This document shows, piece by piece, positions 1 through 10,727 of a stretch of 10,727 nucleotides of DNA (position 1 is its first letter; every line of letters begins with the position of its first letter). The notes under the pieces are model-generated. The model saw only the letters and a list, made by a program, of their open reading frames with translations, had not been told where the DNA came from and made no database searches. The DNA comes from Planctomycetota bacterium (GTDB lineage: Bacteria > Planctomycetota > UBA1135 > UBA2386). The stretch lies in contig CANMWZ010000066.1 of NCBI GenBank assembly GCA_947501605.1, positions 1 through 10,727 on the forward strand, in the 5' to 3' direction. The position numbers and the translations under genes were made by a program.

Positions 1-286
1 GCGACGGCTCCACGCATGTCGTCCTCGACCCGCTCACCTTCCTCGAACGCCTCTGCGCGCTGGTGCCGCGACCGCGACGCATGATGCTCACGTATCACGG
101 CGTGCTCGCGCCCGCTGCTGGGATGCGCGACCGCGTCGTGCCGCCGCCGCCATTGCTGCCTGACGATGACGATGGCGGCTGCGACCACGATGGACAGCGC
201 CAACGCCACCGCTCGCAGTCGTCGACTTCACCCCACCGCCGCACGCTGAAGGACCAACCCTTCGACAACGACCCGCTGCGGCGACG
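1..286 (+). pseudogene. IS91/ISCR-family (Y2 rolling-circle) transposase C-terminal fragment, copy 1, 3'-truncated
   Basis: Frame from nt 3 reads DGSTHVVLDPLTFLERLCALVPRPRRMMLTYHGVLAP, matching the recalled IS91/ISCR C-terminal block (DGTTH..F.PL.F..RL.ALVP.PR....R.HGV.AP). Identity to copy 2 stops abruptly at ~286. The 5' part is outside the window. Confidence 0.85.
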
Positions 287-650: not shown

Positions 651-2066
651 ATGACTCATCGCCAATCCGCGGCCCACGAACCCACGCGCCGGAACCGCTA
701 TTCGAACTTCTGCTGTGCCCTCACCCTCGCACTGGCCGCATGCGGCGGCGGTGGCGGTGGCAGCAGTGGGACCGTCACACCTTCGACCGGCTCCGCGGTG
801 CACCTCGTCCTCGACACCGCCGCGGGCACGCCCGCTCTCGTGCAGGCCCAGGTCGTCGGCGCGACGCTCGAACGCAGCGACGGCAGCCAGACCAGCAACC
901 TGCTCGTCGCGCCGCGCAACGTCGTGCTGAGTCACCCGAGCGGCGAGGCCGAGGGTCTCGAACTGCGCCACGTCGACGGCGGCAACTACACCGCACTCCA
1001 CCTCGTGTTCGCGCCCGGAACGGGCAGCGCGCAGATGGAGGACGGCAGCCATCACTCGGTCGATCTCTCGTCGAACGACCTGCGCATCGCCTTCGAGGAC
1101 GACTTCGTGCACGGCAGCCGCAGCGAGAACTGGCTCTCCGTGCGCCACTCGAGTTCGTCGGCCCTGACCGGCGCCGGCACGCACCACACGTGGTCGCCTT
1201 CGCTCGCTGGCGGCGGTGCTGCGGACGACTCGCTCGGCGGCATGACGATGCACGTCAGTGGCCGCAGCGCGAATGGATTCACGGCGCGCATCCCTGGCGA
1301 CGACCGCGGCCAGGTCCACGTCGAGATCGAGAACGAGAGCGAGCTGTTCGACGACAACGGCGGTCGGCACGGGGATCACGCGTCGTGGGTGGCGGGCGTG
1401 CAGGTCGGCGACGACGTGTTCGTCAGCGGCACGATCTCGCAGAACGGCACGATCCGCGGCCGCCGCGCTCGCGACGACGGCCAGCGCAACTCGCCGCGCC
1501 ACGTCGGTCGCATCACGTCGCTCGACGGCGGCGCGGGCACGTTCGAGATGGACGTGCTCGCGACCACGCTGCACGGCGACCGCTCGCAGATGCAGACCCC
1601 GGACCACGTCGTCGTCACCGTCGGCACCGCCGAGATCCACTTCTCGCGCACGCAGCAGCAGCTGACGTTCGACGATCTGCAGCAGGGTGCACTCGTGAAG
1701 GTCGAGTTCAGCTCGCGCACCGGCAGCAGTGTCACGGCGCGCGAGATCGACGTCAGCAGCCGCGACGGTCAGCCGCAGTTCCCCGAGTCCGAAGGGCTCG
1801 TCAGCGCCGTCGACATCGCGAACAACACGATCACGGTCGTGCGCCGCAACAACGACCCGCTCCTCGTCGGCGGCCAGCCGCTGACCAGCGTGACGCTGCA
1901 CGTGTCGGCGAACACCTTCCTGTTCCGCAAGGACCGCAGCGGCGGCGGCCGCGGTGCGATCACGCTCGGCCAGGTCGTTCCCGGCAGTGATCGCATCTGG
2001 TTCCGCGGCACGGTCACGAGCCCGGGTCAGGTCGACGCCGACTGGGTGCGCGTGCGGACGAACTGA
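651..2066 (+). CDS. Lipoprotein with repeated DUF5666-like beta domains (471 aa)
   Basis: Lipobox LAAC (Cys31) followed by a poly-Gly/Ser linker. Repeated 'VQVGDDVFVSG' and 'LQQGALVKVEF...VTAREI' motifs resemble DUF5666. GC3-biased, protein-like composition. Confidence 0.8.
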   Translation: MTHRQSAAHEPTRRNRYSNFCCALTLALAACGGGGGGSSGTVTPSTGSAVHLVLDTAAGTPALVQAQVVGATLERSDGSQTSNLLVAPRNVVLSHPSGEAEGLELRHVDGGNYTALHLVFAPGTGSAQMEDGSHHSVDLSSNDLRIAFEDDFVHGSRSENWLSVRHSSSSALTGAGTHHTWSPSLAGGGAADDSLGGMTMHVSGRSANGFTARIPGDDRGQVHVEIENESELFDDNGGRHGDHASWVAGVQVGDDVFVSGTISQNGTIRGRRARDDGQRNSPRHVGRITSLDGGAGTFEMDVLATTLHGDRSQMQTPDHVVVTVGTAEIHFSRTQQQLTFDDLQQGALVKVEFSSRTGSSVTAREIDVSSRDGQPQFPESEGLVSAVDIANNTITVVRRNNDPLLVGGQPLTSVTLHVSANTFLFRKDRSGGGRGAITLGQVVPGSDRIWFRGTVTSPGQVDADWVRVRTN

Positions 2067-2069
2067 GGC
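1940..2069 (+). repeat. Direct repeat A, copy 1 (last codons and stop of the lipoprotein gene)
   Basis: 130 bp, 123/130 identical to 4661-4790 by manual alignment. 1989-2069 (81 bp) is identical. Confidence 0.97.
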
Positions 2070-2186: not shown

Positions 2187-4586
2187 ATGCGTCCTTCGGG
2201 CTGGTTCGCGCTGCTCCTCGCAGCGGCAACGATCGCGTGGCTCCTGTGCCGCGACGACGCGTCCGCGCCCGTCACCGACCCGGCGACGCGGAGCACGATC
2301 TCCGAGGACGAGCACCCCAGCGCGTCCGCGCAGACGACCACCGAATCGAGCCATCGCACGGCGGTGGCACGCGAAGCGGGCGAAGAACAGGGATCGCTGC
2401 GCGTCCTCGCGCAGCTGCCGAACGGCGAACCCGCCGCGGGTGCCGTGGTGCGGTTCTCGGAGAAGGCACCGGAGCGGGCTCGCCGCACGCAGTGGGACTG
2501 GCACAGGGCAGAGGACCTCGAACGGGAGCTCACGACCTCCGGCCGCGAAGCGATCGCCGATTCGCGCGGCATCGCGATCGTGCCCGTGTCGACGCAGACG
2601 CTGTGCGTTCGCAGCGGCGACTTCTACGGCGAAGCCGAGGTCGGCGACGGACGAACCGAGGTCCGCGTCCTCCTCTCGCTCGACATCACGATCCTCGTGC
2701 TCGTGCGCGACCAGCAGGGACGGCCGCGCGAGCACTTCGACGTCACGGCGAACGTGCTCGCGGAGTCGCGGATCGAGGGGGCCATCGACAGTCGCTGGCG
2801 GCTGACGACGACCGACGCGCGTGGCCTCGCCTCGCTGCCGCATGCGCAGCTCGCTGTACCGCTGCCCGGGCCAGACCTCTTGGTCTGGAAGATGGTGTTG
2901 GAGTGCGACTACGGCCCCGAGCTCGAACGAACGGTCACCGCCGCCGAGTTCGCTGCCGAACGCCCACTCGTGCTCGAAGTGCCTGCCGGCGGTTCGATCG
3001 CCGTCGAGGTCCAGAATCCCGACGACAGGTCGCCGTGGGCCGACGTGTCGATCGAGGATCCGCAGGCCAGGCTCGTGGTCGGAGGCGATCCCCGCGACGA
3101 CGCGTACTGGTTCCAGCAGTTGCCGCTCGGTCGCAGGTGGATCGCGACGGTGGAGTCCTTCGGCGAGCGCGTGCAACGCGAGATCGACGGACCGACACAG
3201 GTCGACGAGGTCGTGCGCGTGCGCATCGACCTGCCGCTGCTCAGGATCCTGGTGCGCGGCCGCGTCGTGCGACCGGACGGCGTCCCCGTTCCGAGAGCGA
3301 GCATCCGGTTCGCAGGTGCGCCCGTGCGCTTCTTCCGCGAGACGACGGAGAGTCGCGACGGATCGCTCGGGGATCGCGTCGGCGACTTCGCCTTCCACGG
3401 CGCAATGCCAGCGGACGTCGCAAACGTGGCCGGCGCGACGCTGCACGTCGAACGCGAGTCGTACTGCGTCCCGACCACGATCGTGCTGCCGGCGCTGCAC
3501 GCGGGCGAGAACGAACTCGGCGACGTCGTCGTGCAGTTGCCGCCGGACGAGATGCGCCTCGCGTCGGTCGAGGTGCGCGCCGGGGGTCGCAACATCTCGC
3601 AGGAGGCGTGGGCCTTCCTCCAGGCCGCCGGAGACACGCAGGTCAACTCGGTGACCTCGATTCGCGCCGTGCGCGACGACCGCATCGAGTTCCTCGGACC
3701 GAGGACGACGAGCCCGCTCGTGATCGGCGCGAGTTGCGACGGCTTCCTCTCGCGCCGAGTGCCCGTTCGACTCGGCGAACACGTCGTCGTCGAACTGGAA
3801 CCCGAGGCTCGGCTCGCCGTGCGCGCATTGCTCCCACCGGTGCCGCAGCGGCTGTGCACCGCCGTGTTGTCCGAACTGGATGCGAACGCGGGGGCCTCGC
3901 GCTTCTTCGACGGCGAAGGCTACTCGTGGGACTCATTGAGTCCGGGGCGGTACCGCCTGCGCCTGTTCGTCGATGGCCGCCCGGTCCACGAAGTGGCTGC
4001 GATCGACCTCGTTCGCGGTGCCAACGTCTGGCCGCCCGACGGTGGCGCGATCGACTTGCGTTCGCGCGCGTTGGCGCATCACGTCGACGTCCGCGCGGAG
4101 GACGACAGCGAGATCGAGCGATGGCGGTGCTACGTGCTGCCCGTCGACCGCGGGACACCGCCCGAGGAGTTCGACCGCGGCGAGTTCGCGATGCGCCTGC
4201 CGCAGTGGTTCGTCGTGCGCAGCGAGCCCGTGGAACTCGTCGTCACCGCCGCGGGCTTCGTTCCGAAGCGCGTGCTGGCGCCGACTGCCGACACCGTCGT
4301 ACGACTCACGCCGTGCACCAAGGTCCGCGTGCATGCTCCGGCTGGCGAGAACGTTCGCGTCGGCGTCGTCGTGGTCGAGGACGGCGTGTGCGATCCGTGG
4401 CTGCGCGCGCTCGACGCAGACAACGTGCACGAGGAGGACTCGAGCCTCGTCGCCGAGGACGAGCCTGCGGAGTTCGCATTCGCTCCGGGCACCGTGGTCG
4501 AACTGTCGCTCGAACGCGAGGGCGTCACGCCGACCCCTCGGCGCGTGACCGTCGGGAACATCCCGCTCGAGATCGTGCTGCGGTAG
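2187..4586 (+). CDS. Secreted/membrane-anchored protein with carboxypeptidase-regulatory-like (prealbumin-fold) beta-sandwich repeats (799 aa)
   Basis: N-terminal hydrophobic segment. Repeated motifs such as 'VLVRDQQGRP', 'TTDARGLA', 'VRGRVVRPDGVPVPRASI' and 'LSPGRYRLRL'. Normal composition, unlike the overlapping Arg-rich ORFs. Confidence 0.8.
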   Translation: MRPSGWFALLLAAATIAWLLCRDDASAPVTDPATRSTISEDEHPSASAQTTTESSHRTAVAREAGEEQGSLRVLAQLPNGEPAAGAVVRFSEKAPERARRTQWDWHRAEDLERELTTSGREAIADSRGIAIVPVSTQTLCVRSGDFYGEAEVGDGRTEVRVLLSLDITILVLVRDQQGRPREHFDVTANVLAESRIEGAIDSRWRLTTTDARGLASLPHAQLAVPLPGPDLLVWKMVLECDYGPELERTVTAAEFAAERPLVLEVPAGGSIAVEVQNPDDRSPWADVSIEDPQARLVVGGDPRDDAYWFQQLPLGRRWIATVESFGERVQREIDGPTQVDEVVRVRIDLPLLRILVRGRVVRPDGVPVPRASIRFAGAPVRFFRETTESRDGSLGDRVGDFAFHGAMPADVANVAGATLHVERESYCVPTTIVLPALHAGENELGDVVVQLPPDEMRLASVEVRAGGRNISQEAWAFLQAAGDTQVNSVTSIRAVRDDRIEFLGPRTTSPLVIGASCDGFLSRRVPVRLGEHVVVELEPEARLAVRALLPPVPQRLCTAVLSELDANAGASRFFDGEGYSWDSLSPGRYRLRLFVDGRPVHEVAAIDLVRGANVWPPDGGAIDLRSRALAHHVDVRAEDDSEIERWRCYVLPVDRGTPPEEFDRGEFAMRLPQWFVVRSEPVELVVTAAGFVPKRVLAPTADTVVRLTPCTKVRVHAPAGENVRVGVVVVEDGVCDPWLRALDADNVHEEDSSLVAEDEPAEFAFAPGTVVELSLEREGVTPTPRRVTVGNIPLEIVLR

Positions 4587-4660: not shown

Positions 4661-4790
4661 CGGCGGCGGCCGCGGCGTGATCACGCTCGATCAGGTCGTC
4701 CCCGGTAGCGATCGCATCTGGTTCCGCGGCACGGTCACGAGCCCGGGTCAGGTCGACGCCGACTGGGTGCGCGTGCGGACGAACTGAGGC
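4661..4790 (+). repeat. Direct repeat A, copy 2: orphan 3' fragment of the lipoprotein gene
   Basis: Encodes GGGRGVITLDQVVPGSDRIWFRGTVTSPGQVDADWVRVRTN*. Seven differences from copy 1, all transitions, all in the first ~50 bp. Confidence 0.97.
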
Positions 4791-4900
4791 AGCGCTGGCG
4801 GTTCGAAGTCCGCAGGCGCTCGGCCGCGGCTTCGCTCCTTTCCTTCGCGCGCGTGGCACCGTCCGACGGGTGGCTCGTATCCACCCGTTCGAGCCCCACG

Positions 4901-5461
4901 ATGCCACCACGCGCGTTCCGTTTCCTCGGCGGCACCTACGGACCGTGGGTCGTCACGTCCTTCCGCCCCTTCCGTGGCGAGGCGCTGCCGCCCGTCGAAC
5001 GCATCGCGGACGAACCCGGCCTCGACCCTTCGCTACCCGAAGGATCGCGCTGGCTCTTGCGCGGCGTGACGAGCAACGAGCGCTACGCGACGAAGGCCGA
5101 GAAGGCATCGATGCAACGCGTGCAAGCTCCGCTCGGAAGGCCCGAGGCCACGCACGGCGCGATGATCCCGATCCGCAAGAGCGCCGCGTGGTGGGCGCTC
5201 GCGCAAGACGAACGGCGCGAGGTGTTCGAGGAGACGTCGCGGCACATTGCGATTGGCGCGAAGTACCTGCCCGCGATCGCGCGGCGCCTCCACCACTGCC
5301 GCGACCTCGGGTGTGACGAGCCGTTCGACTTCGTGACCTGGTTCGACTTCGCGGGCGCACATGCGTCCGCGTTCGAGGACCTCGTGGCTGCGCTGCGGGC
5401 GACGCGCGAATGGGACTTCGTCGAGCGCGAGTTCGACGTGCGCATGGTGCGCGCGGTGTGA
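4901..5461 (+). CDS. cld: Chlorite dismutase, short clade-2 type (186 aa from ATG 4901; ORF track start 4853)
   Basis: Motifs 'LRGVTSNERY', 'IPIRKSAAWWALAQDERR', 'HI....KYLPAIARRLHHCRD', 'EPFDFVTWF' and 'LRATREWDFVERE' closely match recalled Nitrobacter/Klebsiella-type Cld. The likely proximal His and distal Arg (IAR) are present. Confidence 0.9.
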   Translation: MPPRAFRFLGGTYGPWVVTSFRPFRGEALPPVERIADEPGLDPSLPEGSRWLLRGVTSNERYATKAEKASMQRVQAPLGRPEATHGAMIPIRKSAAWWALAQDERREVFEETSRHIAIGAKYLPAIARRLHHCRDLGCDEPFDFVTWFDFAGAHASAFEDLVAALRATREWDFVEREFDVRMVRAV

Positions 5462-5606
5462 ACGCTGCTCAACACGGATTCTTGCCGTCGACGGGCGCAG
5501 CGACCTCCGACCGCGCGGGCGCCCGCGATGTAGTTGGCGCCGAATCCAAGCAACTCCGAACTGCAGCCTCGGCAACTCGGCCGGCGGCGCTGTGTTCATT
5601 GGGCGA

Positions 5607-5738
5607 CTGCGTGGGGAATCTCACCTCGAATAGAGGTTGCGGACGCGATCCACGGCGGCCACTTCGCGGGACGGAGCCCCACGACCACCATCCCGCGCGA
5701 CTCGCGGATGGTCCGGGAGCCCCTTTGGAAGTCCTACC
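5607..5738. repeat. Direct repeat B, copy 1: structured 132-bp element of unknown type
   Basis: 125/132 identical to 7382-7513. Contains four stems (see findings). Confidence 0.95.
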
Positions 5739-5896
5739 CTGCCGGTTCGCATCACGGCAACTCCTGGGTGTGGGGAAAGCAACGCGGGCAGGACGTGCGG
5801 GATTCGTGCGGTGGGACTCTGGTCCTAGCCCGCCGGATGGTCAACCGCCGATGCCGCGGTTGGGCAAGACGCATCGGGTGCTCGCCGCCCAACGCC

Positions 5897-5902
5897 TAGG
5901 AT
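5897..5902 (+). promoter_or_regulatory. Putative -10 box for a leaderless transcript
   Basis: TAGGAT exactly 7 nt before ATG 5910, with no obvious Shine-Dalgarno sequence. Confidence 0.5.
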
Positions 5903-5909
5903 CCCCGCG

Positions 5910-7037
5910 ATGTTGATTGCCCTCGCCGCGACCTTCCTCGTTCCTCAGCAACCCGCCGCTGTCGCGCCACCTGCACCGCTGGTCGCCGCGCTCGCGCCCG
6001 CCGCCGCCGGCGACAAGGGGGGACCGCGTTGGAGCCCGAAGGGTGCGACGGTGCCGCTCACGCTCGGCGACCAGGGGCCCACCGGCAGCTTCACCGTCGG
6101 CACGCCCGACGCGCCGGCAGTGACCGTTCGCCTGCAGAAGAGCGCTGGTGCCGCGCACTACGACCAGCTGTGGCTCGACACCAACCGCGACGGCAAGCTC
6201 GCCGACGACGAGAAGCTGACCACCACGCCGAAGGAACAACGCGGCAAGTGGTGGTCGAGCTTCACCTCGGAGATCGCGATCCCGGTCGCCGCCGAGGCTG
6301 GCAAGCCGGCGACCACGCGGCCGTATCCGCTCAACCTGTGGTTCGTCGAGGACCCGCAAGAGCCCAACGCCCAACCGGCGCTGCGCTGGTCGCGGCACGG
6401 CTGGCACGAAGGCACGGTCGAGATCGCCGGCAAGCCGGCGCTGGTGATGATCACCGAGATGGAGATGGACGGGGTGTTCGACCAACGCGACAGCTGGGCG
6501 CTGGCGCGCGAACGCAGCCAACTGTTCACCGCCGACTCGCGCAGCATGGAACGCCATGTCTGGTTCGATGGCGTCGCGTATCGGCCGACGTCGATCGACG
6601 CGCATGGCCGCAGCCTGACCTTCGAGCGCTGCGATCCGGGCATGACCGAGGCCGAGGAGAAGGCCAAGGCCGATGTCTACAAGGCCGACCGCGAGGCGCC
6701 GCGCGCGGCCAAGCCGCTGGCCTTCGGCGGCGATCTGGCGGCGGCGCTGGCGACGGCGAAGCAGGACAAGAAGCGCGTGTTCATCGACTTCCAGACCACT
6801 TGGTGCGGGCCGTGCAGGCAGATGGAGCAGATGGTCTACACCGCGGCGGCGGTGGTGACGGCGGCCGACGGCGTGATCGCGGTCAAGCTCGACGGCGATG
6901 AGCAGCGCGAGTTGGTGAAGAGTTACGGCGTCGCGGCGTATCCGACGATGCTGCTGCTCGACCAGGACGGCAACGAGTTGAAGCGCGCCGTCGGCTACCG
7001 CTCGGTCGCGGCGATGGTCGAGTTCTTCAAGCCGTAG
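5910..7037 (+). CDS. Secreted thioredoxin-family protein (C-terminal WCGPC domain, uncharacterised N-terminal domain), 375 aa
   Basis: 'KRVFIDFQTTWCGPCRQM' and cis-Pro loop 'YGVAAYPTMLLLD'. Hydrophobic Ala/Pro-rich N-terminus. Contains a DxNxDG motif, 'DTNRDGKLADDE'. Confidence 0.9.
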   Translation: MLIALAATFLVPQQPAAVAPPAPLVAALAPAAAGDKGGPRWSPKGATVPLTLGDQGPTGSFTVGTPDAPAVTVRLQKSAGAAHYDQLWLDTNRDGKLADDEKLTTTPKEQRGKWWSSFTSEIAIPVAAEAGKPATTRPYPLNLWFVEDPQEPNAQPALRWSRHGWHEGTVEIAGKPALVMITEMEMDGVFDQRDSWALARERSQLFTADSRSMERHVWFDGVAYRPTSIDAHGRSLTFERCDPGMTEAEEKAKADVYKADREAPRAAKPLAFGGDLAAALATAKQDKKRVFIDFQTTWCGPCRQMEQMVYTAAAVVTAADGVIAVKLDGDEQRELVKSYGVAAYPTMLLLDQDGNELKRAVGYRSVAAMVEFFKP

Positions 7038-7047
7038 CGATCACGCT

Positions 7048-7408
7048 GTGCTGGTCCACCTGCGGAGGGGGGCTCGTTGTCCTGGCCTTGTTGGTCTTGG
7101 CGGTGGGCGCGCTGCTGTTCCTGGTCTACGGCTACAACCGGTTCGAGGTCATCAACCGCAGCGGCGTCGACGTGCGCGACCTGCAGCTCGTGCTGCGCCA
7201 ACTCGACGGCACCGAGGTGCTGCGCATCGAATGTCCGGTGCTGGCTCCGGGTGAGTGCCTGACGCGCCGCCTGCAGCTGCTCGATTCCCGCGCCGAGTGG
7301 TCGTACTCGTGGCACGGCAAGCCGCAGCGCGGCGACGATGGCGACCAGCAACGGCCACGGTTGACCCAGCGCGCGCAGAAGCTGCGTGGGGAATCTCACC
7401 TCGAATAG
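7048..7408 (+). pseudogene. Small single-TM protein, probably frameshifted at a G6 run and running into repeat B
   Basis: GTG 7048 gives MLVHLRRG. Removing one G from 7067-7072 joins it to LVVLALLVLAVGALLFLVYGYNRFEVINRSG (the 7088..7408 frame). The stop codon lies inside repeat B copy 2. Confidence 0.5.
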
Positions 7409-7513
7409 AGGTCGCGGACGCGATCCACGGAGGCCACTTCGCGGGACGGAGCCCCACGACTACCATCCCGCGGGGCTCGCGGATGGTCTGGGAGACCCTT
7501 TGGAAGTCCTACC
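7382..7513. repeat. Direct repeat B, copy 2
   Basis: Same orientation as 5607-5738, offset 1775 bp. Abuts the ISL3 remnant. Confidence 0.95.
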
Positions 7514-7517
7514 TTGC

Positions 7518-7849
7518 GCCTGGTCGCTGAAAGAGACTGCGATGGGCATCTGGCGTTTCGTCAGACGCAGTAGCGCCGGAGCGGCGCTGCGCGAGTGGGT
7601 AACCAAGGCGATGCGCAGCCGCCTCGAGCCGATGAAGCGTGCCGCGAGCATCTGTGGGGCATCGTCAACGCCATGGCCCTGCGGGTCACCAACGCCGCCA
7701 GTGAGTCCGTCAACTCCAAGGTGCAGCGCGTCGAGCGCGCCGCCTGTGGCTTCCGCAACAGAGAGCGATTCAGGAATGCGATTCTGTTCCACCTCGGGGG
7801 CCTCGATCTCTATCCCGCAACCGCGTCAGCTACCCACACGAGTTCCTGA
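7518..7849 (+). pseudogene. ISL3-family transposase C-terminal remnant, frameshifted
   Basis: Reads AWSLKETAMGIW...WVTKAMRSRLEPMKRAA, shifts frame at ~7641-7648, then EHLWGIVNA...TNAASESVNSKVQ...ACGFRNRERFRNAILFHLGGLDLYP. This matches the recalled ISL3 C-terminus. Confidence 0.9.
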
Positions 7850-7856
7850 TGCGCCC
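7826..7856 (+). mobile_element. ISL3 right terminal inverted repeat
   Basis: TCAGCTACCCACACGAGTTCCTGATGCGCCC overlaps the transposase stop codon and matches the reverse complement of 10328-10358 at 27/31 positions. Confidence 0.8.
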
Positions 7857-7883
7857 ACGACCTTACGAATGGGGCGAGGCGGC

Positions 7884-8309
7884 TCATTGGTTCACGATAG
7901 ACGAGCCCGGTTCGATAGGCTTGTTCCCAACATGGACCGTGTTTGAGTTTCGCCCCTCGGCCAGACCCCAGACACCGAGCCCACCCAAGAGGCAAGCCGT
8001 GACGATTGCCAAGCGATTAGCCGCGGTCGCAGACAGCGCTTGATCCACGGGACCAAGGCAACCGCAAGCCTCACCTGAAAAGACGTGCCAAGAAACAGCA
8101 GCTGTTGTCCATACCACGATGGCGCCAACCACCATCTTCCTCGGCATCACAGCCACTACCAAGGCCATGCATAGATCGACCCACACCAATGCGACCTGCC
8201 ATGTTGAATAGGTGGAATCCGAAGACGTCCACTTCAGGAGCACCAGAGCCGCGAATGCTGCTGTGACTACGATGCGAGTTGCAGTTGAGCGCTTCATGGA
8301 GCGCCTCAC
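7884..8309 (-). CDS. MauE/DoxX-like small membrane protein with CGC motif (141 aa)
   Basis: About four hydrophobic helices and 'EACGCLG' (MauE family CGCFG). GTGA overlap with the upstream gene's stop at 8306-8309. Confidence 0.65.
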   Translation of the reverse strand: MRRSMKRSTATRIVVTAAFAALVLLKWTSSDSTYSTWQVALVWVDLCMALVVAVMPRKMVVGAIVVWTTAAVSWHVFSGEACGCLGPVDQALSATAANRLAIVTACLLGGLGVWGLAEGRNSNTVHVGNKPIEPGSSIVNQ

Positions 8310-9913
8310 CTGCCCAGCACTGCCTTGAATGTCGCCTCTCCAGCTCCTCGGATCGGGACATCGACGAACTGTGAGTAGCTCCCCAAGAATTGACTAGAGG
8401 CCCGAAACTCAATGGCGCCGCACGGCAGTAGCATACGAGCATCTGCTGTCGAACCGTCAAATCCGAGTCTGGCCACCCGTTGGTCTGCGACATAAGCCTC
8501 CAAGAAAATTCCACCGACGACATCTGACATCAGATTCCCCACTAGCTCAATCTCGCAGAGCCTCGCATCATGAGGCAATCTAGCTTCGCCGCTCCCACTA
8601 CCGCCGGCTTCCACGATGATTTTCTCGATGTACTCCCCTACTCCCCAGGTGATGTCATACGTCCCAGGAGGGACACGCACATCCGTTCCGGACTGGAGCT
8701 TTCCGACTCTCCAGGATCTGCTTCCGTTGACACCCTTGGCGCTGAGCGGGACCCCGAACAACTCTCGATTGCTGGCATCGATGACCTTGAAGCTCAGAGA
8801 GCCGCACACGAGCGAGCGATCTAATCCCTGCGGCACAGTGAATGATTGACACCACTCGCTACCTGAAAGACTCTTCAATTCGTAATCTCTGTCTATCCAA
8901 CCGAGACCTTCAACGAAAGCTGTGAGCGTGGCTTTGAGCATGGGGTCCTGAGCTCTGGCCATGAACAGCGTGTCTGCATTGCTCAGCGGACAACGCTCCT
9001 GCATTCGTTCTCTAGCTCGTCGCAATCCGCGGAAATGCGGAGTTCCCTTCATCTTGCAGCTCAAACTAAGACAAAACAACTTCTCGGCAGGGATATCGAG
9101 CGCCAACCCCACCAAAGGCGTCAAGACAATCCTGTATGGGCCACCAGGAACTGTGAAGCTTGCTAGTGCAATCTCGACTGAAGCGACGAATGCTTCGTGT
9201 TCAACTTCGACCCCGTAATTCCCGGCCGTGAGCTTTAGTAAAACCGATCCTTCCGCGTCAGTTGTCGACGTCGCAATACCATGAACCTGCCCATCTCTGT
9301 AGACGGCAATCGAAGGACCCTCGCCTCTCCACCTCGCCGGAATGGGGCCCTTGGAAGCGGCAAGCTCGACGCCTTGGATTGGCTCACCTGCAGTATCAAC
9401 AATTTGAAATTGAATCACAGCGGCATCAGGCAGTTCAGCCAGCCATCCACCAGGGCGCACCTCCCGGAAAGGAACCATGAAATCTGCCCAGAGGATCTTG
9501 GCAAAAAAGGCCTTGTGACCAACCCTCAGATCGTCCGTGGCGATTTTCGCAATGCCGTCGGCGCCGGTCACACCGAGCATCACACCCCCTGCGGGCACCT
9601 GACGCTTTCCAGCATACTGCGCCTCAAATGCCACGACCTCGACGTTGGCGACACCGGCCCCAGTGGCTGATTTGGCGAAAAACTCGACGCTGCCACCCAC
9701 AGAACTTGCCAAGGATCGCGGCAAGGAGAGAGAGTCGGTCCCCACCGAAACAGCGGCTTGCGGGCCCGAGGCCATGGGAAGCGGCTTCTCTGAACCAGCA
9801 GCCGCAGCCGCATTGTTCGGCTCGTTTGTGAACATCGACAGGAATGCCACACCCAGTAAAATCGAGAGCGCGAGCGCAGTCCCGACCACCGAATTACGCC
9901 CGACGGACTTCAC
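8306..9913 (-). CDS. Membrane-anchored protein with carboxypeptidase-regulatory-like repeats (~535 aa; likely GTG start at 9913)
   Basis: GTG lies 1 nt after the upstream stop and is followed by a TM segment, 'VVGTALALSILLGVAFLSMF'. Motifs 'IVDTAGEPIQGVEL', 'TTDAEGSV..KLTAGNY' and 'VPPGTYDI'. Confidence 0.75.
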   Translation of the reverse strand: MKSVGRNSVVGTALALSILLGVAFLSMFTNEPNNAAAAAGSEKPLPMASGPQAAVSVGTDSLSLPRSLASSVGGSVEFFAKSATGAGVANVEVVAFEAQYAGKRQVPAGGVMLGVTGADGIAKIATDDLRVGHKAFFAKILWADFMVPFREVRPGGWLAELPDAAVIQFQIVDTAGEPIQGVELAASKGPIPARWRGEGPSIAVYRDGQVHGIATSTTDAEGSVLLKLTAGNYGVEVEHEAFVASVEIALASFTVPGGPYRIVLTPLVGLALDIPAEKLFCLSLSCKMKGTPHFRGLRRARERMQERCPLSNADTLFMARAQDPMLKATLTAFVEGLGWIDRDYELKSLSGSEWCQSFTVPQGLDRSLVCGSLSFKVIDASNRELFGVPLSAKGVNGSRSWRVGKLQSGTDVRVPPGTYDITWGVGEYIEKIIVEAGGSGSGEARLPHDARLCEIELVGNLMSDVVGGIFLEAYVADQRVARLGFDGSTADARMLLPCGAIEFRASSQFLGSYSQFVDVPIRGAGEATFKAVLGR

Positions 9914-9914
9914 T

Positions 9915-10292
9915 TCAGCACCTGCAGACCTTCTGAGGCGTCGCGTTCGGCACTCCGAACTCCTTGCATGGCTTCGCGCAGTAGTTGCGTACGCACGTGT
10001 AAGTCCAGACGCTGGTTTGCGCGTCGATCTGCCCACCCCCCTCACAAGGATTGTAGGGCTGCGTCTGATTTCCGCAACCGCAGGAGTAGTACCACACGCC
10101 AGCAACGAACACCGTCACCAGTTCGCAACTACTGTAGTCGTCACACAATGTGGCGGGGCAGGTGAAAAGAACCGATCCATTCGGGCTCGTGCTGATCTGA
10201 AGCCCGCAGTTCTCGCTTGTCGGCGCGGGCGCTGTGATCGCAGCCAGCGAGATCAGCACCATTAGCCCCAGCCAAACTTTTGTTTTGATCAT
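9915..10292 (-). CDS. Secreted cysteine-rich miniprotein (125 aa, 12 Cys)
   Basis: Sec-type signal MIKTKVWLGLMVLISLAA. Twelve Cys in a mature region of ~100 aa, ending in CRC. First gene of a tightly packed operon. Confidence 0.8.
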   Translation of the reverse strand: MIKTKVWLGLMVLISLAAITAPAPTSENCGLQISTSPNGSVLFTCPATLCDDYSSCELVTVFVAGVWYYSCGCGNQTQPYNPCEGGGQIDAQTSVWTYTCVRNYCAKPCKEFGVPNATPQKVCRC

Positions 10293-10299
10293 GGCTAGC

Positions 10300-10308
10300 A
10301 AGATAACA
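10300..10308 (-). promoter_or_regulatory. Putative extended -10 promoter (TGnTATCTT), leaderless
   Basis: The minus strand reads TG-T-TATCTT-GCTAGCC-ATG (7-nt spacer to ATG 10292). Confidence 0.55.
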
Positions 10309-10317
10309 GGGGGGGGG
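10309..10317. repeat. G9/C9 homopolymer directly upstream of the extended -10
   Basis: Nine consecutive G on the + strand. Confidence 0.9.
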
Positions 10318-10327
10318 CCAAAACTAG

Positions 10328-10358
10328 GGGGTCTTCAGGAAGTCGTGTGGGTAGCTGA
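10328..10358 (-). mobile_element. Isolated ISL3-type terminal inverted repeat
   Basis: GGGGTCTTCAGGAAGTCGTGTGGGTAGCTGA is an inverted match (27/31) to 7826-7856. No ISL3 ORF follows it. Confidence 0.75.
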
Positions 10359-10406
10359 GCATAGCTGATGGCCTCGATGCCTATCGTCCTGGCCACTGCG
10401 CAGCCA

Positions 10407-10727
10407 CTTAAGCGGTATCGCGACGGCTCCACGCACGTCGTCCTCGATCCGCTCACCTTCCTCGAACGCCTCTGCGCGCTGGTGCCGCGGCCGCGACGCA
10501 TGATGCTCACGTATCACGGCGTGCTCGCGCCGGCTGCCAGCATGCGCGATCGCGTCGTGCCGCCGCCGCCGCTGCCCAACGATGACGATGGCGCGGATGG
10601 TGCCGGCGGCTGTGACCACCTTGGTCAGCGCGAACGCCGCCGGCCGCAGTCGTCGAGTACATCCCACGGCCGCACGCTGCAGGGCCAACCCTTCGACAAC
10701 GACCCGCTGCGCCGACGCCGCATGCCG
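10407..10727 (+). pseudogene. IS91/ISCR-family transposase C-terminal fragment, copy 2, 5'-truncated and running off the window
   Basis: Reads LKRYRDGSTHVVLDPLTFLERLCALVPRPRRMMLTYHGVLAP...DPLRRRRMP. 10420-10717 aligns with 1-286 with substitutions and two in-frame indels. The upstream sequence is the ISL3 end, not the transposase N-terminus. Confidence 0.85.

What the first reader, a model, noticed from the sequence alone, without database searches (positions are those of the whole stretch)
5607..7513. Unexplained 132-bp structured element in two copies, with all substitutions outside the stems
Seen in copy 1: CGTGGGG(5610-16)/CCCCACG(5677-83) closes a multiloop containing ACCTC/GAGGT (5623-37) and CGCGA/TCGCG (5644-68). 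A further hairpin, ACCATC(C)CGCG/CGCGGATGGT (5687-5712), has one bulged base. The seven differences (5638, 5656, 5686, 5698, 5700, 5714, 5720) all avoid these stems, though the stems were picked by eye. Both copies have sharp, identical boundaries in unrelated flanks, with no terminal IR or obvious target duplication. Copy 2 sits at the junction of two broken genes. Inference: a non-autonomous mobile unit or structured RNA/ssDNA site, for example an IS110/IS1111 non-coding end (bridge/seek RNA-like) or an HUH-nuclease substrate (the minus strand starts GGTAGG). It may mobilise the enclosed thioredoxin module.
Basis: partly seen in the sequence, partly recalled or inferred. Interest (0 to 1): 0.8.

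Follow-up and report, generated by a model that had tools for sequence, protein, structure and literature searches.

The report
Leftover ISCR transposon origin ends
The two repeats are cut-off "start" ends of a known rolling-circle jumping gene (ISCR/IS91 type), not a new structured RNA; such ends sit in same-facing rows between unrelated genes in this bacterium and its relatives.

Summary
The repeat is real: 132 bp, exactly the seven differences listed. It is the oriIS (right) end of an ISCR/IS91-family rolling-circle element. The genome holds ten near-full copies. On contig C55 the same sequence ends 225 nt after the stop of an ISCR-like Y2 transposase remnant. Its last bases match published ISCR oriIS motifs, and NYGC follows in 10 of 10 copies. 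Only the 3' boundary is sharp: copy 1 runs on to 5524.

The multiloop is unsupported: fold z-scores are unremarkable and its helices are 60-65% paired across 11 copies. One sub-terminal hairpin holds up (85%). No IS110 or Y1 transposase and no intact cognate transposase were found in the assembly. Movement of the thioredoxin gene is possible but not shown.

A single-contig relative carries 85 such ends, mostly in same-facing clusters. This scan has noted the same array pattern on other genomes. Verdict: new member of a known kind, low interest.

The parts
5524..5738 (+). Copy 1: 215-bp 5'-truncated non-coding right end (oriIS region) of an ISCR-like element; begins about 10 nt after where the transposase stop would lie
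   Evidence: 92% over 220 bp to C55:14907-14689 and 79% to C55:10660-10441, which follows the Y2 transposase remnant
5687..5712 (+). Sub-terminal hairpin of copy 1, ending 26 nt before the terminus; candidate oriIS palindrome
   Evidence: 85% of cells paired in 11 copies, one pair changed on both sides; its base is the RNAalifold consensus helix
5721..5738 (+). oriIS core motif CCCTTTGGAAGTCCTACC of copy 1; inferred nick site on the minus strand at its right edge
   Evidence: Most conserved part of the alignment, 0.94-0.95; resembles ISCR1, ISCR27 and L049 oriIS
5739..5742 (+). Tetranucleotide CTGC next to the ori end (target or cleavage site; register uncertain by 1-2 nt)
   Evidence: NYGC follows 10 of 10 near-full copies; genome frequency 7.4%
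5910..7037 (+). Intact 375-aa protein with hydrophobic N-terminus and C-terminal thioredoxin domain (WCGPC); passenger between the two ends
   Evidence: PF00085 E=1.6e-15; homologues in 24 of 90 family genomes; no ISCR transposase or end within about 1.5 kb in 14 of 14 homologue loci
7088..7381 (+). Orphan ORF running into copy 2; possibly cut by it
   Evidence: No Pfam hit; 0 of 90 family genomes; Atlas look-alikes are unnamed 111-127-aa proteins
7382..7513 (+). Copy 2: 132-bp 5'-truncated oriIS stub, starting at CTGC
7462..7487 (+). Sub-terminal hairpin of copy 2
7496..7513 (+). oriIS core motif of copy 2
7514..7517 (+). Tetranucleotide TTGC next to copy 2's ori end; the related ISL3 copy on C39 has ACGC in the same register
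7516..7855 (+). 3' fragment and right end of an ISL3 element, frameshifted
   Evidence: PF01610; 94% to C39:41477-41125; other copies carry 13 extra bases at 7641
10329..10409 (+). First 81 bp (left end) of an ISL3 element, joined to the next transposase remnant
   Evidence: 97.5% to C39:42674-42594; inverted repeat with 7826-7856
1..286 (+). Internal fragment of the cognate ISCR-like Y2 transposase, cut by the contig start and lacking its 3' end
   Evidence: 88% to C55:11224-10927; PF04986 E=0.0098; NF052416 E=4e-9
10410..10727 (+). 5'-truncated fragment of the cognate transposase, same orientation, running off the contig end
   Evidence: 91% to C55:11234-10917; NF052416 E=2e-10

Best explanation
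The repeats are non-autonomous, 5'-truncated oriIS ends of an ISCR-type (IS91-family) rolling-circle element. Shown here: their identity, their position after the transposase stop, a fixed 3' end followed by NYGC, variable 5' cut points, and same-facing clustering. From published work on IS91: a HUH transposase nicks the bottom strand between a tetranucleotide and oriIS, displaces that strand towards the transposase side and inserts it next to a target tetranucleotide without duplication; failed termination drags along upstream DNA (one-ended transposition). Inferred here: repeated one-ended events, plus recombination between the 130-350-bp shared ends, left rows of ori | passenger | stub | ori. 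The window's 5739-7513 (thioredoxin gene, orphan ORF, stub) is one such unit. It is probably a fossil in this genome, as no intact cognate transposase is assembled. The confidence is for the identity; the route by which the rows were built is about 50% sure.
For: C55:11373-10671 is a Y2 transposase remnant (PF04986 E=7e-16; 36% to a plasmid ISCR-type transposase, E=3e-36; best NCBIfam hit ISCR clade Ia), and the repeat ends 225 nt after its stop. ISCR1's oriIS region is 232 bp and ISCR27's motif lies 236 bp downstream. The terminal motif resembles ISCR1 GTGGTTTATACTTCCTATACCC and L049 GCGTTTGAACTTCCTATACGC. In relatives, 15 of 29 transposase loci from other genomes have a TT-N6-8-CCTAY motif 174-415 nt after the stop, against 0.03 expected per 520 nt (the motif was chosen after seeing some of these loci, and 4 of the 14 misses had under 150 nt of downstream DNA). 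Full-length relatives carry Zn_Tnp_IS91 plus Y2_Tnp. No terminal inverted repeat, no duplication and a fixed adjacent tetranucleotide are IS91-family traits. Copies start at different points: C55 11373, 15055, 7555, 2221; C52 1243; window 5524, 7382. All 5 ends on C55 and all 4 pieces in the window face one way. In G224, 85 ends were found, 70 in clusters of three or more, and 60 of 68 neighbouring pairs face the same way; full and truncated copies mix there.
Against: No intact cognate transposase or terIS is assembled in G000, so nothing shows these copies moved as stubs. No true empty site was found; where a flank has a homologue, the left and right flanks come from different genes. The nick register is uncertain by 1-2 nt, because ISL3 homology next to copy 2 starts at the third base of the tetranucleotide. 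A test for a transposase signature at the 5' junctions of 21 G224 stubs was inconclusive. No passenger was found repeated next to two ends among 26 G224 ends. ISCR transposition itself is not experimentally proven (PMC13393415).
Confidence: 0.92

Rival explanations
1. Working cassette system: each ori|NYGC junction is both a termination site and a preferred insertion site, so a transposase acting in trans excises ori-to-ori circles (here 5739-7513, 1775 bp) and re-inserts them at other ori ends, like integron cassettes.
For: The geometry fits. A two-oriIS 'sandwich' capture is described for ISCR28 (passage in PMC12772301). G224 has stubs directly or shortly after another ori (L073 17948/17953; L066 13301/13727). 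Clusters are large and same-facing.
Against: No shuffled or repeated passenger among 26 G224 ends. 14 of 14 thioredoxin-homologue loci lack ISCR ends. Many passengers begin or end inside genes (ISL3, MATE). The stretch 5713-7409 recurs almost unchanged in two runs of different studies (one may be the source sample). No cognate transposase in G000.
Confidence: 0.2
2. Passive accumulation: whole elements inserted independently into permissive islands and were later trimmed by deletion. They face one way because of a bias tied to replication direction, and the genes between them were not carried by the elements.
For: In G224 (dnaA at about 0.8 kb, GC skew changing sign near 4 Mb) 74 of 85 ends and 14 of 17 clusters point with the fork, p=0.013. 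A replication-linked orientation bias is reported for IS91 (PMC3971601). Internally deleted and 3'-less pieces exist.
Against: The published IS91 bias is against the fork, opposite to G224. In G000 all 6 copy-bearing contigs put the element mostly on the C-rich strand, also opposite to G224 (they may be pieces of one island). The ori end is kept far more often than the transposase start, which random trimming does not predict.
Confidence: 0.3
3. The stubs are kept because they carry outward promoters that drive the next gene (here the thioredoxin gene), as the ISCR1 oriIS region does.
For: ISCR1 outward promoters raise downstream expression 13-15-fold (PMC6218425). The thioredoxin gene starts 171 nt after copy 1 on the same strand.
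Against: No sigma-70-like site in 5450-5950 (this scan may miss promoters of this lineage). Copy 2 and several C55 ends face broken or opposite-strand genes.
Confidence: 0.1
4. A structured non-coding RNA, or an IS110/IS1111 non-coding end (bridge or seek RNA).
For: Stems can be drawn in the two window copies. The whole structure scores slightly above shuffled columns (12 of 500 for pairing, 16 of 500 for covariation), a level that related sequences often reach without structure.
Against: No Rfam match near the repeat at E<=5; z-scores not significant; multiloop helices broken in about 40% of cells; no IS110 recombinase in G000; position fixed behind a Y2 transposase.
Confidence: 0.02
5. REP/RAYT-type (Y1 HUH) palindromic repeat or an unrelated MITE.
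For: Multi-copy, non-coding, with a hairpin.
Against: No PF01797 in G000; no terminal inverted repeat or duplication; continuous with Y2 transposase coding sequence in 5 copies (C55 x3, C52 x2).
Confidence: 0.01

Closest known systems
ISCR elements (ISCR1, ISCR27, ISCR28; NCBIfam NF052416 ISCR clade Ia)
   Same: About 520-aa Zn-finger plus Y2 HUH transposase in relatives (about 40% to plasmid IS91-family transposases); a 225-nt non-coding right end closing in a TT..CCTAY motif; copies lacking terIS; genes sandwiched between two oriIS.
   Different: Transposases score 330-366 bits against a 925-bit clade Ia cut-off, so they are another ISCR lineage. The host is an environmental bacterium, passengers are not resistance genes, there is no class 1 integron link, and most copies are stubs in rows of 5-15.
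IS91, IS801, IS1294 (IS91 family proper)
   Same: No terminal inverted repeats, no target duplication, a tetranucleotide next to oriIS, sub-terminal palindrome, one-ended transposition (PMC13181058).
   Different: Tetranucleotide is NYGC on the top strand (GCRN on the bottom) rather than CTTG/GTTC; the transposase is longer and below the NF033538 cut-off; no activity shown.
Integron cassette arrays (attC)
   Same: Same-facing repeats separating unrelated accessory genes (integron features recalled, not read here).
   Different: The repeats are one-sided transposon ends of variable length, continuous with transposase sequence; passengers often break inside genes; no reordering shown.
Non-autonomous Helitrons
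   Same: HUH rolling-circle elements whose defective copies carry gene fragments (search listings and abstract starts).
   Different: Bacterial, no helicase domain seen in relatives; the conserved end here is the origin end.

Membership tests
ISCR / IS91 family | HUH Y2 transposase with N-terminal zinc domain upstream of the end | tested here: met
   Remnant on C55 (PF04986); full-length in relatives L020 and L043; only fragments in G000
ISCR / IS91 family | oriIS motif about 170-250 nt downstream of the transposase stop | tested here: met
   225 nt on C55; 15 of 29 loci of other genomes; published 232-236 bp
ISCR / IS91 family | No terminal inverted repeats and no target-site duplication | tested here: met
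ISCR / IS91 family | Conserved tetranucleotide adjacent to oriIS | tested here: met
   NYGC in 10 of 10 copies; CCGT in 23 of 26 G224 ends. Whether it is target or part of the end is not settled without an empty site
ISCR / IS91 family | Sub-terminal palindrome in the oriIS region | tested here: inconclusive
   Hairpin 5687-5712 85% paired, one two-sided change; not evident in the distant ends aligned
ISCR / IS91 family | terIS upstream of the transposase | tested here: not met
   All G000 copies are 5'-truncated, as expected for remnants; a shared left end is visible in 3 of 5 long G224 copies
ISCR / IS91 family | Rolling-circle transposition through a single-stranded circle | not testable with these tools
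   Only assembled contigs were available
ISCR clade Ia (NF052416) | Score above the curated cut-off of 925 bits | tested here: not met
   365 and 330 bits for full-length relatives
IS110/IS1111 | DEDD recombinase gene beside the non-coding end | tested here: not met
   No PF01548 match in G000, 91% complete
Structured non-coding RNA | Stable fold and covarying helices | tested here: not met
REP/RAYT | Y1 transposase with flanking palindromes | tested here: not met
   No PF01797 match in G000

The most novel reading that the evidence does not exclude
In this bacterial order, ISCR oriIS stubs act as the attachment sites of an integron-like gene-collecting platform: a transposase in trans cuts ori-to-ori single-stranded circles (such as the 1775-bp thioredoxin unit) and inserts them next to existing ori ends, growing 40-100-kb same-facing islands like the five large ones in G224.
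Probability: 0.2. Interest if true: 0.65.

Novelty: new member of a known kind. Interest (0 to 1): 0.22.

Why it matters
As a single finding it corrects an annotation: a supposed structured RNA is a transposon end. Its wider value is as a pointer. ISCR transposition has not been shown experimentally (PMC13393415), and relative G224 has 85 near-identical ends with several full-length transposases in one single-contig chromosome. That is a natural data set for target choice, truncation and orientation bias. If ori-to-ori excision and re-insertion were shown, ISCR ends would be a general gene-collecting platform in environmental bacteria rather than a feature of resistance plasmids.

Tried and rejected
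Rfam at E<=5: two chance hits elsewhere in the window, none on the repeat. Single-strand folds: not better than shuffles. IS110 and Y1 transposases: none in G000. The intact IS91-family gene on C10 lies behind a tyrosine recombinase, has no tblastn match to the remnants and no such end in the 500 nt after it, so it was rejected as the cognate enzyme; action in trans was not tested.

Empty sites: none found; flank homologues were informative only for the ISL3 piece. Thioredoxin as habitual passenger: 0 of 14 loci fetched, out of 24 genomes with a homologue. Signature at 5' junctions: AT lay at the junction in 7 of 21 G224 stubs (p=0.004 alone), but it was chosen after looking, TC scored equally among the 16 dinucleotides, and some stubs share a cut point; inconclusive. 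In G000 several stubs start at or near YGC, others do not (not tested statistically). Repeated passengers beside G224 ends: none in 26. Replication bias: with the fork in G224, opposite sign in G000; not general.

Public runs: 4 of 22 listed runs were laid, all as contigs. No listed joint marks a circle or clean loss of 5739-7513, but contigs drop rare forms and 4 joints were not shown. Promoter scan: nothing. Paper searches listed no paper on large arrays of truncated ISCR ends in environmental chromosomes; the library lacks most subscription papers and no supplements were read, so this does not show absence from print.

Full report
Observation. The window is a whole contig (G000:C66). Identity runs four bases further, with one mismatch. 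The genome has 10 near-full copies on C66, C55, C78 and C52, and 5 weaker ones on C45 and C57.

Structure. Neither strand of either copy folds better than shuffles (z +0.05 to -1.9), and Rfam has no match on the repeat. RNAalifold keeps the base of that hairpin but not the multiloop. The two next-closest copies each change three stem positions. Conservation peaks in the last 24 bases (0.94-0.95), as expected of a protein-recognised end.

Identity. On C55 the repeat closes a 225-nt non-coding stretch after the stop of a Y2 transposase remnant. That remnant is 36% identical to a plasmid ISCR-type transposase, and its best NCBIfam hit is ISCR clade Ia, below the cut-off. Both ends of the window are fragments of the same gene. 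Relatives are common: 137 of 300 other genomes of the order match at E<=1e-10, and full-length ones carry Zn_Tnp_IS91 and Y2_Tnp. In 15 of 29 fetched loci from other genomes a TT-N6-8-CCTAY motif lies 174-415 nt after the stop (chance 0.03 per 520 nt; motif chosen after seeing some loci). Published ISCR ends agree: ISCR1 GTGGTTTATACTTCCTATACCC (PMC13023784, passages), ISCR27 236 bp after the stop (PMC8894482, passages), a 232-bp ISCR1 oriIS region (PMC6218425, passages), and the fetched plasmid end GCGTTTGAACTTCCTATACGC. IS91-family elements lack terminal inverted repeats and target duplications and sit beside a fixed tetranucleotide (PMC13181058, passages). Here NYGC follows 10 of 10 near-full copies (7.4% background). 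IS110 and Y1 transposases were not found in G000.

Anatomy. Every G000 copy is 5'-truncated, at different points, and no intact cognate transposase is assembled. The five ends on C55 and the four pieces in the window each face one way, with a few opposite fragments elsewhere. Between them lie intact accessory genes and gene fragments. Right of copy 2 is an ISL3 3' fragment, and an ISL3 left end sits at 10329-10409 before the next transposase remnant, so 7514-10409 looks like the inside of an ISL3 composite cut at both ends (inference). Several contigs break inside these repeats, so they may be parts of one island (inference). Contigs from 4 public runs of 4 studies cover the window; two bridge 5713-7409 almost unchanged, and summed depth rises about tenfold over the repeat (one run may be the source sample).

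Relatives. In G224, a single-contig genome of the same order, an exact pattern finds 85 ends (0 for the reversed control). Seventy lie in clusters of three or more, and 60 of 68 neighbours within 30 kb face the same way. Full-length and truncated copies are mixed, and CCGT follows 23 of 26 ends examined. With dnaA near position 1 and GC skew changing sign near 4 Mb, 74 of 85 ends and 14 of 17 clusters point with the fork (p=0.013). A published survey found IS91 biased against the fork (PMC3971601, passages), and G000's six copy-bearing contigs lean that way by GC skew. Replication bias may therefore contribute but is not a general explanation.

Mechanism. Shown: identity, fixed ori end, adjacent tetranucleotide, variable 5' truncation, clustering. 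From published IS91 work: bottom-strand nicking, single-stranded circles and one-ended transposition. Inferred: repeated one-ended events and recombination between shared ends built the rows, and the thioredoxin unit is one captured piece. Capture between two oriIS is described for ISCR28 (PMC12772301, passages citing a paper I did not see), and IS91-driven circles with passenger genes in an environmental strain (PMC5737581, passages). Against an active cassette system: no ISCR end beside 14 of 14 thioredoxin homologue loci, no reused passenger at 26 G224 ends, an inconclusive junction test, and no enzyme in G000. ISCR transposition is itself unproven (PMC13393415, passages).

Novelty. The element is a new lineage of a known family. 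My reading was noted before I consulted the scan's notes. Those notes list at least eight similar arrays in other genomes (unchecked) and call this organism a planctomycete (unchecked). Seven paper searches listed nothing on such large environmental arrays, but the library is partial and supplements were not read. Interest is low for this window; the G224 arrays are the better place to test the cassette idea.

Noticed in passing
window 1940-2069 and 4661-4790: A 130-bp, 95% identical direct repeat of the 3' end of the DUF5666 gene (651-2066) flanks the 799-aa CarboxypepD_reg gene (2187-4586); it may mark an insertion or duplication.
   Followed up: no
window 7856-10328: Lower-GC stretch (54-61% against about 69%) with a 599-aa CarboxypepD_reg-like gene and a small Cys-rich ORF on the minus strand, enclosed by ISL3 right and left ends. 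C55:15675-17099 has a similar-looking gene pair after an ori end.
   Followed up: partly
window 10409/10410: In run X2 one contig covers 7763-10409 and continues for 1146 further letters, close to the length of the missing ISL3 body; this could be an allele without the transposase remnant or a path through the C39 copy.
   Followed up: no
window 5742-5743: Run X3 has contigs leaving the repeat at the tetranucleotide into two flanks that are not in the G000 assembly, hinting at further insertion sites in this or a related population.
   Followed up: partly
window 4761-5720: In runs X2, X7 and X9 the contig through the chlorite-dismutase-like gene carries 14-34 other letters, against 3 in X3, suggesting other stub alleles at this site.
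   Followed up: no
window 4901-5461: Chlorite dismutase-family gene (PF06778) ends 62 nt before copy 1.
   Followed up: no
G224:C1 (L066-L074): 85 ISCR ends in one 7.7-Mb chromosome, five clusters of 8-15, with full-length transposases; three long copies share a left boundary that resembles the ori junction.
   Followed up: partly
L014 (G000:C10) 404-2599: Intact tyrosine recombinase followed by an intact IS91-family transposase (NF033538 above cut-off), unrelated to the remnants.
   Followed up: partly
G000:C57 1133-1315, C45 6941-7045, C10 3430-3607: Two other dispersed repeat families of about 100-170 bp with many copies across the genome; not identified.
   Followed up: no
G000:C85 (3661-2619) and C31 (27494-27088): Remnants of a second ISCR subfamily with their own ori ends.
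   Followed up: partly
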